Source: a virus. Taken from it: DNA of 64,000 bases. Numbering within the stretch: position 1 is the stretch's first letter; each line of letters opens with the position of its first letter. This document shows positions 8,508 through 9,686 of the stretch, in pieces. The translations under genes and the position numbers were made by a program. The notes under the pieces were generated by a model. The model saw nothing but the letters and a program-made list of their open reading frames with translations. It was not told where the DNA came from and searched no databases. The stretch spans positions 1 to 64,000 of the IMG/VR virus record IMGVR_UViG_3300025876_000005, one strand, 5' to 3'.

Positions 8508-8531
8508 CAAAATAAATCTAATAAATAGGAC

Positions 8532-9686
8532 ATGCAACTTAAAACATTTACAGAATTCCAAATGGTCAACGAGGCACAGAGCTCACTTAGGCTCAATGTG
8601 CCTTCAGATATTATAGACCTACATAAACTATTCCAAAAGAATGGTAAGGAGCTCTATATTGTTGGCGGTGCTGTCAGAGATGCAATCATGGGTAAAAAGC
8701 CTAAGGATTTTGACCTTGCAACTGATGCCTTTCCAGAAGAGGTGGTTAACATGGTCCAAGGGGCTGGTTACTCTACGATTGGAGAGGTTGGGCAGCAGTT
8801 TGGTGTTGTGATTGTGCAAATACCTTCAGATAAGAATGGAGTTGAGATTGCCACGTTTAGAGAGGACCTTTCAGGAGGTCGCAGACCGGATGCTGTAAAA
8901 TACTCAACCATCGACAAGGATGTTCTTAGACGAGACTTAACAATTAACGCTCTTTTCTACGATATTGGCAGAGGCGAGATTGTTGACCTGGTTGGAGGAC
9001 TAAAAGACATCCAGGACCAGAAGATTCGAACTGTTGGCGCTGCTGCTGATCGATTTGCTGAAGATCCATTAAGAAAGCTGAGAGCACTCAGATTTGCAGG
9101 CAGGACTGGTTCTAAACTAGAGAAGGAGACGGCAGATGCTATCTTGACCGACAATAGCCTGGAAGGTGTTAGCCCTGAAAGGATTCGTGATGAGTTTAAG
9201 AAGTCAATTGAATCTGCAAAGAAGCCAGTCGACTACTTAAATATGGTTAGTCACTTTAGTCTATGGGATATTATGTTTCCAAATCTTGTAATTTCAACCA
9301 ATTTTGTCAATACTAACACTTGGCCTATTCAATTGACTCACCTGTTTGATATGAACTCAAACGATATGATTAAGAAGGAGATGAATAGGATGACTTTTAC
9401 GTCAGACGAGGTTAATGCTGTGGTCTTTCTAAAGAACCTGAGGGACCTTAAGCCTGAAAATGTGTTTGACCTTTACAAGCAGTGGGTGACCACCAAGGTT
9501 GACAAGGATGTAATTACACAGTTTGCGAAGATAAATAGATTAGATCTGAAGCAAATTAAGGCCTTCTTAAAGTACAAACCAACAACCGATGGTAATTGGG
9601 TAATGCGAGAGTTTGGCGTTAAGGGACCACAAATTGCGCAAAAGATTAAAGAAATAGAGGCTGAAAAATACAAAAAAACAATATGA
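8532..9686 (+). CDS. cca: CCA-adding tRNA nucleotidyltransferase (class II) with capsid-targeting-like leader
   Basis: VGGAVRD, DFDLAT, EIATFRED..GGRRP loop, RRDLTINA, EDPLR templating motif, SPERIRDE; leader MQLKTFTEFQMVNE. Confidence 0.88.
   Translation: MQLKTFTEFQMVNEAQSSLRLNVPSDIIDLHKLFQKNGKELYIVGGAVRDAIMGKKPKDFDLATDAFPEEVVNMVQGAGYSTIGEVGQQFGVVIVQIPSDKNGVEIATFREDLSGGRRPDAVKYSTIDKDVLRRDLTINALFYDIGRGEIVDLVGGLKDIQDQKIRTVGAAADRFAEDPLRKLRALRFAGRTGSKLEKETADAILTDNSLEGVSPERIRDEFKKSIESAKKPVDYLNMVSHFSLWDIMFPNLVISTNFVNTNTWPIQLTHLFDMNSNDMIKKEMNRMTFTSDEVNAVVFLKNLRDLKPENVFDLYKQWVTTKVDKDVITQFAKINRLDLKQIKAFLKYKPTTDGNWVMREFGVKGPQIAQKIKEIEAEKYKKTI

What the first reader, a model, noticed from the sequence alone, without database searches (positions are those of the whole stretch)
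8511..9686. CCA-adding enzyme that appears addressed for virion packaging
Seen: a class II nucleotidyltransferase with the EDxxR templating motif and the GRRP loop, but with an extra leader MQLKTFTEFQMVNE|A and a late-type AATAAATA motif at 8520-8527. It is followed by other leader-bearing genes. Inference: the enzyme may be made late, packaged, matured by the prohead protease and injected, so tRNA 3' ends could be repaired before any phage translation. I do not know of a described virion-delivered CCA enzyme.
Basis: partly seen in the sequence, partly recalled or inferred. Interest (0 to 1): 0.75.

Follow-up and report, generated by a model that had tools for sequence, protein, structure and literature searches.

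The report
Capsid-tagged phage tRNA CCA-adding enzyme
A large uncultured T4-like marine phage encodes a tRNA-end repair enzyme with a short T4-style "load me into the capsid" tag and a late-gene promoter box, so it is probably packed into the virus particle and delivered with the DNA, although no experiment shows this yet.

Summary
ORF 8532-9686 (+) encodes a 384-aa class II tRNA nucleotidyltransferase with intact catalytic motifs and a CCA-enzyme-like predicted fold.

- **Leader:** residues 1-14 (MQLKTFTEFQMVNE|A) are an add-on. Cellular homologues and 45 of 150 representative homologous CCA domains start just after it, and AlphaFold leaves it unpacked.
- **Match to T4:** it has the four determinants of the T4 capsid targeting sequence, an aromatic pair three residues apart and hydrophobic-x-Glu|Ala. 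Two extra residues separate the halves, so it scores poorly against this genome's 17-member leader family.
- **Conservation:** the determinants are kept in every full-length N-terminus among 120 close homologues and in 23 distinct IMG/VR loci.
- **Polyproteins:** in other relatives the CCA module sits inside 800-1800-aa leader-headed chains, usually with [LIVM]xE at the same junction.
- **Late box:** AATAAATA lies 4 nt before the ATG, a spacing shared by eight genes here. 16 of 23 relatives have such a box.
- **Early context:** the gene also sits in a host-promoter operon with PNKP-type phosphatase and kinase genes, so it is probably made early too.
- **Genome context:** there is a gp21-type protease, a gp23-type capsid protein and a gp55-like sigma factor.

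Packaging, cleavage and injection remain inferred. This scan has noted similar tags on other genomes. I found no published virion-borne CCA enzyme.

The parts
8520..8527 (+). Late-type promoter box AATAAATA, 4 nt before the ATG; probably gives a leaderless or near-leaderless late mRNA
   Evidence: Eight genes in the genome have [GA]ATA[TA]ATA exactly 4 nt before the ATG, and no other offset from 0 to 18 has more than one. 16 of 23 distinct related loci have such a box within 30 nt of the CCA start, 11 of them at 4-5 nt, against about 2% expected per locus. AATAAATA is the commonest natural T4 late-promoter variant (PMC2988020).
8532..8573 (+). Codons 1-14: leader or propeptide MQLKTFTEFQMVNE, with predicted cleavage after Glu14 (VNE|A)
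   Evidence: Absent from leaderless homologues, which start at the position of residue 15-22 or so. Cellular CCA enzymes start near query residue 20. pLDDT is below 50 for residues 1-17. F6, F9, V12, E14 and A15 are conserved in every full-length N-terminus among the 120 close homologues. The same four determinants matter in the T4 CTS MKTYQEFIAE: residues 4 and 7 for targeting, 8 and 10 for processing (PMC9026906).
8574..9686 (+). Predicted mature class II tRNA nucleotidyltransferase (CCA-adding type), 370 aa, about 41.9 kDa, pI 8.7
   Evidence: Pfam, PHROG and NCBIfam matches. AlphaFold model with mean pLDDT 89.4. Best fold matches are CCA-adding enzymes: 6q52 TM 0.72/0.75, 1miv 0.70, against E. 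coli PAP 0.57. Only three other [LIVM]xE sites occur in the mature part.
6908..6994 (+). Terminator plus host-type (Bacteroidota-like) early promoter cassette that heads the operon containing the CCA gene
   Evidence: Near-identical cassettes lie at 5338-5417, 11638-11740 and 16771-16870. Hairpin terminator at 6935-6960.
6995..7450 (+). PNKP-type HAD phosphatase, same operon
   Evidence: Pfam HAD_PNKP, E 6.1e-34.
7838..8236 (+). P-loop kinase (AAA_33, polynucleotide-kinase-like), same operon
   Evidence: Pfam AAA_33, E 2.9e-11.
10511..10762 (+). Leader-bearing small protein (MKHVKSFELFE...), same operon
   Evidence: Leader HMM score 19.4 bits.
10759..11637 (+). Leader-bearing protein (GTG start, MKKVGLYEQFVNE|E), with TATAAATA 25 nt upstream
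11678..11703 (+). Intrinsic terminator that ends the operon
12095..13138 (+). T4 Rnl1-type RNA ligase in the next unit; not leader-tagged
   Evidence: Pfam RNA_lig_T4_1, E 2.1e-16. It aligns to T4 Rnl1 from residue 29 to residue 35, so it has no N-terminal add-on.

Best explanation
ORF 8532-9686 encodes a functional class II CCA-adding-type tRNA nucleotidyltransferase of a 176-kb T4-like phage of a Bacteroidota-type host. It belongs to a tRNA end-healing gene set: a PNKP phosphatase and a kinase in the same operon, and an Rnl1 ligase next door.

Its first 14 residues are a detachable propeptide built like the T4 capsid targeting sequence. An aromatic pair (F6, F9) would bind the prohead core. 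V-N-E|A is a site for the phage's gp21-type prohead protease.

The gene is read twice. Early, it is part of an operon driven by a host-type promoter. Late, it is read from its own T4-type box placed 4 nt before the ATG, giving a leaderless mRNA.

Late-made copies are co-assembled into the prohead core, trimmed to a 370-aa enzyme starting AQSSLR, kept in the DNA-filled head and ejected into the next host. There the enzyme can rebuild damaged or missing tRNA 3' CCA ends before phage genes are expressed. Copies made in the cell mature the phage's own tRNAs, 22 of 25 of which lack an encoded CCA.

Shown: enzyme family and fold, add-on nature and conservation of the leader, the junction motif, the late-box class, and the presence of protease, capsid protein and late sigma factor. 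Inferred: targeting, cleavage, retention in the virion, ejection, and the biological purpose.
For: **Enzyme**
- Family, motif and fold evidence.

**Leader is an add-on**
- Of 150 CCA domains from 50%-identity cluster representatives, 45 start directly at the domain (for example MSNLKLKIPSD), 58 have short extensions and 47 lie inside long proteins.
- Residues 1-17 have pLDDT below 50.
- Solved cellular enzymes begin at about query residue 20.

**Leader resembles the CTS**
- The T4 CTS is MKTYQEFIAE (bioRxiv 10.1101/2021.01.19.427310).
- Mutagenesis assigns targeting to residues 4 and 7 and processing to 8 and 10 (PMC9026906).
- These correspond to F6, F9, V12 and E14 here, which are the positions that stay conserved in the full-length N-termini of 120 close homologues and in 23 distinct IMG/VR loci.
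- The genome's own leader HMM matches the T4 CTS at 12.8 bits.
- Conservation is at the peptide level, with synonymous codon variation.

**Junction motif**
- [LIVM]xE ends 26-36 residues before GGxVRD in 74 of 105 extended homologues, peaking at exactly the window's position (31).
- Four of five control windows further upstream show it in only 14-24%; the adjacent one, which catches slightly offset junctions, shows 53%.
- Long relatives are leader-headed chains of NMNAT-like, HD, kinase, HAD-like and CCA modules.

**Machinery**
- Peptidase_S77 protease-scaffold fusion with three times the proteome density of [LIVM]xE, a Gp23 capsid protein, and a leader-bearing gene between portal and protease.
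- gp55-like sigma factor.
- An S77 protease is present in 5 of 5 related records carrying leader-tagged or polyprotein CCA genes.

**Late expression**
-.
- Leader genes are enriched for late boxes: 8 of 18 against 26 of 178, p = 0.0045.

**Size**
- T4 packages and delivers CTS fusions as large as beta-galactosidase (PMC9026906).
Against: - No virion proteome, cleavage data or cultured isolate exists.
- The CCA leader has a 2-residue insertion between the aromatic pair and the cleavage motif. It scores only 2.8 bits (E about 2) against this genome's leader family.
- The gene sits in an early operon with no terminator between the host-type promoter at 6908-6994 and the gene. Early cytoplasmic synthesis is therefore likely, and injection is not needed for early activity.
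- The box here is a double variant (AATAAATA) of the local consensus GATATATA.
- The partner healing enzymes in this genome (phosphatase, kinase, ligase) carry no leader.
- Late boxes also occur in the tRNA region, so late expression could simply track tRNA production.
- The protein is below the NCBIfam equivalog cut-offs: 177 bits against 290 for CCA and 178 against 306 for PcnB. Specificity for CCA rather than A-only or poly(A) addition is not proven.
Confidence: 0.55

Rival explanations
1. This is an ordinary cytoplasmic phage CCA-adding enzyme. It only matures and repairs tRNAs inside the infected cell. The N-terminal extension is a lineage-specific helix with no role in packaging, and the late box merely boosts the enzyme when phage tRNAs and late proteins are made.
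For: - 22 of 25 phage tRNA genes lack an encoded CCA.
- The gene lies in an early operon with PNKP-type phosphatase and kinase genes.
- Late boxes lie within the tRNA region.
- Many jumbo phages encode CCA enzymes, and published descriptions treat them as tRNA-processing genes (PMC6102473 and PMC5852040).
- The leader fits this genome's leader HMM poorly.
Against: - It does not explain why the extension ends in [LIVM]xE|A at a fixed junction in 74 of 105 extended homologues.
- It does not explain why exactly the T4 CTS determinant positions are conserved.
- It does not explain why relatives embed the module in leader-headed chains with the same joint.
- It does not explain why leader-bearing genes as a class are enriched for late boxes.
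Confidence: 0.3
2. The protein is taken into the prohead core and cut, but it is not a delivered enzyme. It could serve as a scaffold accessory, or be degraded and expelled like most T4 core proteins. In that case the tag would serve assembly or disposal, not injection.
For: - In T4 most core proteins are degraded after cleavage.
- Three further [LIVM]xE sites exist in the mature part, at residues 83, 358 and 372.
Against: - The density of [LIVM]xE sites in the enzyme is half the proteome average (0.010 against 0.020) and six times lower than in the scaffold. That pattern is expected for a protein meant to survive the protease.
- All catalytic motifs are strictly conserved.
- An intact 42-kDa enzyme is an unlikely scaffold filler.
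Confidence: 0.07
3. The enzyme is a poly(A) polymerase or an A-adding or CC-adding enzyme rather than a full CCA-adding enzyme. Its role would then be RNA tailing or decay rather than tRNA repair, whatever the tag does.
For: - The best sequence hit in the PDB is E. coli poly(A) polymerase, at 7e-33 against 8.6e-32 for human CCA enzyme.
- The NCBIfam PcnB subfamily model scores as high as the CCA model.
- EDxxR is shared by both enzyme types.
Against: - The full-length match is to the Bacillus-type CCA model, profile positions 16-373 of 396, while PcnB covers only residues 32-287.
- The predicted fold superposes better on CCA enzymes (TM 0.70-0.75) than on PAP (0.57).
- The genomic context is tRNA repair, with 22 CCA-less tRNA genes.
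Confidence: 0.1

Closest known systems
Phage T4 internal proteins IPI, IPII, IPIII and Alt, with the capsid targeting sequence (CTS, MKTYQEFIAE) removed by the gp21 prohead protease
   Same: - A short N-terminal add-on with an aromatic pair three residues apart, followed by hydrophobic-x-Glu|Ala.
- The same genome has a gp21-family (Peptidase_S77) protease, a gp23-family capsid protein and a gp55-like late sigma factor.
- A late-type box of the T4 kind is present.
- Cargo can be an enzyme, as with Alt. T4 packages and delivers large CTS fusions (PMC9026906; bioRxiv 10.1101/2021.01.19.427310).
   Different: - The cargo is a tRNA nucleotidyltransferase, which I did not find described as a virion protein.
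- The leader is 14 residues rather than 10, with 2 extra residues between the targeting and processing halves.
- The tag is used on about 18 proteins in this genome rather than 4.
- Nothing has been tested experimentally.
Class II CCA-adding enzymes (Bacillus/Planococcus type, PDB 1MIV and 6Q52; human TRNT1, 4X4W)
   Same: Head-domain motifs A-D, the flexible loop, and the overall head-neck-body-tail fold (TM 0.70-0.75).
   Different: - About 25% identity.
- Below the NCBIfam equivalog cut-offs.
- Carries about 19 extra N-terminal residues, 14 of which form the leader.
- Phage-encoded.
Phage-encoded tRNA nucleotidyltransferases of jumbo phages (for example Atu_ph07 gp18, XacN1 ORF446, Caulobacter phage CCA enzymes)
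   Same: A phage CCA enzyme that accompanies a large tRNA gene set and other tRNA-processing genes.
   Different: - Those are described only as cytoplasmic tRNA-processing genes.
- The Caulobacter phage homologues align from query residue 23 onward, so no counterpart of the leader is seen.
Processed ejection proteins of giant phages (phiKZ and SPN3US type), with propeptides removed by the prohead protease
   Same: Many enzymes and proteins are loaded into the head and trimmed by the head protease.
   Different: The phage lineage and propeptide style differ. I saw only the abstracts of the SPN3US papers.

Membership tests
Class II tRNA nucleotidyltransferase (CCA-adding enzyme) | PolyA_pol head domain with motif A (GGxVRD ... 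DxD carboxylates) | tested here: met
   Pfam PF01743, E 3.9e-34. G45, G46, R49, D50, D59 and D61 are invariant.
Class II tRNA nucleotidyltransferase (CCA-adding enzyme) | Motif B (RRD), motif C (DxxGG..D) and motif D (EDxxR, nucleotide templating) | tested here: met
   R133, R134, D135, D152, G155, G156, D159, E177, D178 and R181 are invariant. EDxxR is shared with PAP, so it is not discriminating.
Class II tRNA nucleotidyltransferase (CCA-adding enzyme) | Full-length fold of a CCA enzyme (head, neck, body, tail) | tested here: met
   AlphaFold mean pLDDT 89.4. Foldseek: 6q52 TM 0.72/0.75, 1miv 0.70/0.69, PAP 3aql 0.57.
Class II tRNA nucleotidyltransferase (CCA-adding enzyme) | Score above a curated equivalog cut-off | tested here: not met
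   NF009814 scores 177.2 bits against a cut-off of 290. TIGR01942 (PcnB) scores 178.1 against 305.65. This is a divergent phage branch.
Class II tRNA nucleotidyltransferase (CCA-adding enzyme) | Adds C-C-A to tRNA 3' ends and stops | not testable with these tools
   Needs an enzyme assay.
T4-type CTS-tagged capsid cargo | Short N-terminal propeptide that is not part of the folded protein | tested here: met
   Leaderless homologues start right after it. pLDDT is below 50 for residues 1-17.
T4-type CTS-tagged capsid cargo | Targeting determinants: two aromatic or hydrophobic residues at i and i+3 (T4 Y4, F7) | tested here: met
   F6 and F9, conserved as F or Y across the full-length N-termini of 120 close homologues and in most of the 23 distinct loci. 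T4 data from PMC9026906.
T4-type CTS-tagged capsid cargo | Processing determinants: [LIV]-x-E followed by a small residue (T4 I8, E10|A) | tested here: met
   V12-N-E14|A15. The junction motif is enriched (74 of 105, peak at the same offset).
T4-type CTS-tagged capsid cargo | Same spacing as the T4 CTS and as the genome's own leader family | tested here: not met
   A 2-residue insertion (Q-M) lies between the two halves. The score is 2.8 bits (E about 2) against the leader HMM, while the T4 CTS scores 12.8 bits. The insertion is conserved among CCA orthologues.
T4-type CTS-tagged capsid cargo | gp21-family prohead protease and gp23-family capsid in the same genome | tested here: met
   Peptidase_S77 at 104769-106973 and Gp23 at 107109-108623 (genome coordinates).
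T4-type CTS-tagged capsid cargo | Synthesis during late (assembly) phase | tested here: inconclusive
   A late-type box lies 4 nt before the ATG, a conserved class that is also conserved in relatives. No transcript data exist, and the gene also lies in an early operon.
T4-type CTS-tagged capsid cargo | Found in virions with the propeptide removed; ejected on infection | not testable with these tools
   There is no isolate and no proteome.

The most novel reading that the evidence does not exclude
A widespread lineage of marine T4-like phages pre-loads its capsids with tRNA-end repair enzymes. Here the cargo is a CCA-adding enzyme. In relatives it is a whole protease-jointed chain of kinase, phosphatase, HD, NMNAT-like and CCA modules. 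The phage would then arrive already armed against host defences or stress responses that damage tRNA 3' ends or anticodon loops, before any phage gene is expressed.
Probability: 0.4. Interest if true: 0.8.

Novelty: new variant of a known kind. Interest (0 to 1): 0.62.

Why it matters
Virion-delivered proteins are the first weapons a phage deploys. The known examples act on host RNA polymerase (T4 Alt), on restriction enzymes (T4 IPI) or on transcription (virion RNA polymerases).

A packaged tRNA 3'-end repair enzyme would extend this list to the translation apparatus. It would imply that attack on tRNA is an immediate barrier that these phages must overcome on entry. Known examples of such attack include anticodon nucleases and enzymes that modify the CCA end (stated from my own knowledge).

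The finding also shows that the T4 capsid targeting sequence is conserved in logic in distant marine T4-like phages of Bacteroidota. There it is used on many more cargo types and can be read from sequence alone, which gives a practical way to predict injected proteins in uncultured phages.

If the tag proves not to direct packaging, the gene is an ordinary phage CCA enzyme that serves 22 CCA-less phage tRNA genes.

Tried and rejected
- **DNA search of cultured phages.** No phage in the 50,697-record collection is close at the DNA level. The best capsid-protein relatives are uncultured megaphages, Lak phages and Tenacibaculum phages PTm1/PTm5, at 31-51%. No virion proteome of a close relative could be used, and the searches did not turn up the original PTm1 description.
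- **The look-up of encoding contigs.** I used the search for related loci on IMG/VR instead.
- **Literature.** Searches for a virion-associated CCA enzyme found only genome descriptions and a toxic nucleotidyltransferase-like protein of phage fHe-Kpn01, with no virion report.
- **Leader as an RNA-level signal.** I considered that the leader might act at the nucleotide level, for example as a translation signal of leaderless mRNAs. I rejected this because codons vary synonymously while residues are kept, and because most leader genes have 19-33-nt 5' regions.
- **RNA ligase as tagged cargo.** The N-terminus MKITKDILDRYVAE looked leader-like. I rejected it because it aligns with the native N-terminus of T4 Rnl1.
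- **Internal start at Met11.** Some gene callers used it, giving 374-aa versions. I rejected it because position 11 is Leu in many orthologues.
- **S77 protease and leader presence.** All 5 records with leader-tagged or polyprotein CCA genes have the protease. The comparison set was mostly incomplete fragments, so the test does not discriminate.
- **Sigma-70 consensus scan.** It gave no more hits than shuffled sequence.
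Full report
**What is there**

The window is the first 64 kb of a single 176,489-bp phage record with 38.6% G+C. ORF 8532..9686 (+) encodes 384 aa.

It matches the Pfam PolyA_pol head domain (residues 41-166, E 3.9e-34) and the RNA-binding domain. It also matches PHROG 2244, tRNA nucleotidyltransferase, at 1.9e-58. In a 22-sequence alignment all class II catalytic motifs are invariant: GGxVRD, D59/D61, the GRRP loop, RRD and EDxxR.

NCBIfam gives no match above an equivalog cut-off. The Bacillus-type CCA model aligns over the full length (177 bits against a cut-off of 290). 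PcnB covers only the front part.

An AlphaFold model has mean pLDDT 89.4. It superposes best on CCA-adding enzymes: 6q52 at TM 0.72/0.75 and 1miv at 0.70. E. coli poly(A) polymerase reaches only 0.57. I therefore read it as a CCA-adding-type tRNA nucleotidyltransferase. The exact specificity needs an assay, because EDxxR is also present in PAP.

**The phage**

The genome has the following T4-type genes:
- a Peptidase_S77 (T4 gp21-type) protease fused to a scaffold-like region, at genome 104769-106973;
- a Gp23-family major capsid protein, at 107109-108623;
- a gp55-like late sigma factor, a gp4-like head closure protein and a gp2-like DNA end protector.

ORF 6575-6907 in the window starts with a signal-peptide-like segment followed by IPNAFTPDGD. 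From my own knowledge this resembles a type IX secretion sorting domain; I ran no family search on it. The nearest capsid proteins belong to Lak, Tenacibaculum and uncultured megaphages. Both points suggest a Bacteroidota-type host.

**The leader is an add-on**

- Among 150 CCA domains from representatives of 50%-identity clusters, 45 begin directly at the domain (for example MSNLKLKIPSD, matching residues 15-25 or so here). Another 58 carry short extensions, and 47 lie inside long proteins.
- Solved cellular enzymes start at about query residue 20.
- The model leaves residues 1-17 at pLDDT below 50, while the fold is confident from residue 20 or so.

**The leader has the logic of the T4 capsid targeting sequence**

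The T4 CTS is MKTYQEFIAE, and it is cut once by gp21 (bioRxiv 10.1101/2021.01.19.427310). Suppressor mutagenesis put targeting at residues 4 and 7 and processing at residues 8 and 10 (review PMC9026906). In the CCA leader MQLKTFTEFQMVNE|A, the corresponding residues are F6, F9, V12 and E14.

These are the positions that stay fixed or conservatively substituted while the others vary:
- in the full-length N-termini of 120 homologues at 72% identity or more;
- in most of 23 distinct IMG/VR loci at 47-82% identity;
- in an uncultured 635-kb phage (MILKKYKMFLE|S).

Seventeen other ORFs in the genome begin MK-x-[ILV]-K-x-F-E-x-F-[ILV]-N-E. Their conservation is at the peptide level, with synonymous codon variation. 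An HMM built from them matches the T4 CTS at 12.8 bits. One member sits between the portal and protease genes, where T4 has the prohead core genes 67 and 68. Another follows the capsid gene.

Against membership, the CCA leader has two extra residues between the aromatic pair and the cleavage motif. It scores only 2.8 bits against the family HMM. CCA orthologues keep this spacing, so the leader has travelled with the gene for a long time. In T4 the targeting and processing halves are separable, which makes the insertion tolerable in principle. That step is inference.

**The junction**

In 74 of 105 homologues with any N-terminal extension, [LIVM]xE ends 26-36 residues before the GGxVRD motif, peaking at 31, the window's own offset. 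Four control windows further upstream show it in 14-24%. The adjacent 37-47 window, which catches slightly offset junctions, shows 53%.

The long homologues are chains of 800-1800 aa. They begin with a leader-like peptide (MNELSKFLVE|S, MGQKIKQWVVE|S) and string together cytidylyltransferase-like, HD, AAA_33 kinase, HAD-like and CCA modules.

The scaffold part of this phage's protease protein has three times the proteome density of [LIVM]xE, while the CCA enzyme has half of it. All of this fits cleavage by a gp21-type protease, which acts inside proheads. It does not prove cleavage.

**Timing**

The dominant intergenic 8-mer is GATATATA, with 32 copies on the + strand and 1 on the - strand. 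It stands in front of the portal, protease, capsid, sheath and other virion genes.

Distances from [GA]ATA[TA]ATA to the next ATG fall into two groups: a broad class at 19-34 nt and a sharp spike at exactly 4 nt. The spike holds eight genes, including the CCA gene (AATAAATA-GGAC-ATG), two canonical leader genes and three genes in virion regions.

In T4 the box spans -13 to -6, and A at -13 is the commonest natural variant, at nine of fifty sites (PMC2988020). A 4-nt gap therefore implies a leaderless or near-leaderless mRNA.

In relatives, 16 of 23 distinct leader-bearing CCA loci have such a box within 30 nt, 11 of them at 4-5 nt and several as canonical GATATATA. About 2% per locus would be expected by chance. 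In the short-extension and leaderless homologous loci I saw no such box in the 32 nt printed upstream of the start; one long chain (L048) does have one. Across the genome, leader genes are enriched for late boxes: 8 of 18 against 26 of 178, p = 0.0045.

The gene also lies in an operon that starts at a repeated terminator plus host-type promoter cassette (6908-6994) and ends at the terminator at 11678-11703. That operon contains a PNKP-type HAD phosphatase (E 6.1e-34), a P-loop kinase, the CCA gene, a hexapeptide transferase and two leader genes. A T4 Rnl1-type ligase follows in the next unit. In some relatives the early-promoter segment and the late box lie side by side in front of the CCA gene. 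The gene is therefore probably expressed both early and late. From my own knowledge, the T4 internal proteins are likewise made both early and late.

**An ordinary role exists**

22 of the 25 phage tRNA genes lack an encoded CCA. Late boxes also occur in the tRNA region. The main rival is therefore a purely cytoplasmic enzyme whose late box tracks tRNA production. That rival does not explain the conserved junction motif, the conservation of the CTS determinants, or the leader-headed chains.

**Verdict**

Comparative evidence for a protease-removable, CTS-like address tag and for late expression is good. Packaging, cleavage and ejection remain untested, and early expression is also likely.

I put about 0.55 on the packaged-enzyme reading. 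I found no published virion-borne CCA enzyme. The idea that T4-like phages use CTS-like tags for varied cargo is already in print as a suggestion (PMC9026906).

Earlier notes of this scan report similar tags, including a CCA module in a protease-jointed chain, on other genomes. I re-derived that pattern independently from IMG/VR loci, but the notes themselves are not independent evidence.

Noticed in passing
window 19947-20867 (aa 105-119); window 22307-23110 (aa 155-166); genome 77169-77927 (L001:13169-13927, aa 105-119): Complete internal copies of the leader (for example MKFVKLFEEFVTE|K ahead of a GNAT acetyltransferase domain) lie inside longer ORFs. These are either two-module polyproteins or mis-called starts.
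   Followed up: partly
window 16084, 19225, 32381 and genome 64902, 104357, 157917, 165168 (gene starts): Together with the CCA gene, eight genes have a late-type box exactly 4 nt before the ATG. This suggests a class of leaderless late mRNAs in a phage of a Bacteroidota-type host.
   Followed up: partly
window 5338-5417, 6908-6994, 11638-11740, 16771-16870: A near-identical cassette recurs: TTGCAAAAAAG, a hairpin terminator, then TTTTTTATTATATTAGTACTGTAATTAAAA. It looks like a terminator followed by a host-type early promoter that marks the boundaries of early operons.
   Followed up: partly
genome 135754-140166 (L004:11754-16166): An array of 25 tRNA genes, of which 22 lack an encoded 3' CCA. 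GATATATA boxes lie at 135524 and 136707 in the same region.
   Followed up: yes
genome 104769-106973 (L003:769-2973): The prohead protease (Peptidase_S77) is fused to a long acidic, repeat-rich scaffold-like region. That region has three times the proteome density of [LIVM]xE, including repeated HVAE|K, YLAE|A and YIAE|S units.
   Followed up: partly
L044, L048, L056, L075, L078, L084 (IMG/VR loci): In related phages the CCA module is part of 800-1650-aa chains with NMNAT-like, HD, AAA_33 kinase and HAD-like modules. Together these amount to a tRNA or RNA end-healing kit in one reading frame, headed by a leader-like peptide.
   Followed up: partly
window 12095-13138: The T4 Rnl1-type RNA ligase has an N-terminus (MKITKDILDRYVAE) that mimics the leader pattern, but it aligns with the native N-terminus of T4 Rnl1. 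It is not a tag.
   Followed up: yes
window 6575-6907: A small secreted protein with a signal peptide and a motif (IPNAFTPDGD...) that from my own knowledge resembles a type IX secretion sorting domain. It hints at a Bacteroidota host.
   Followed up: no
genome 172635-175865 (L006): Long, highly repetitive ORFs (repeats of ELQAQAEQTVQT and similar) lie at the end of the record. The repeat words GGAACAGA and ACAGACGG occur over 100 times on one strand.
   Followed up: no
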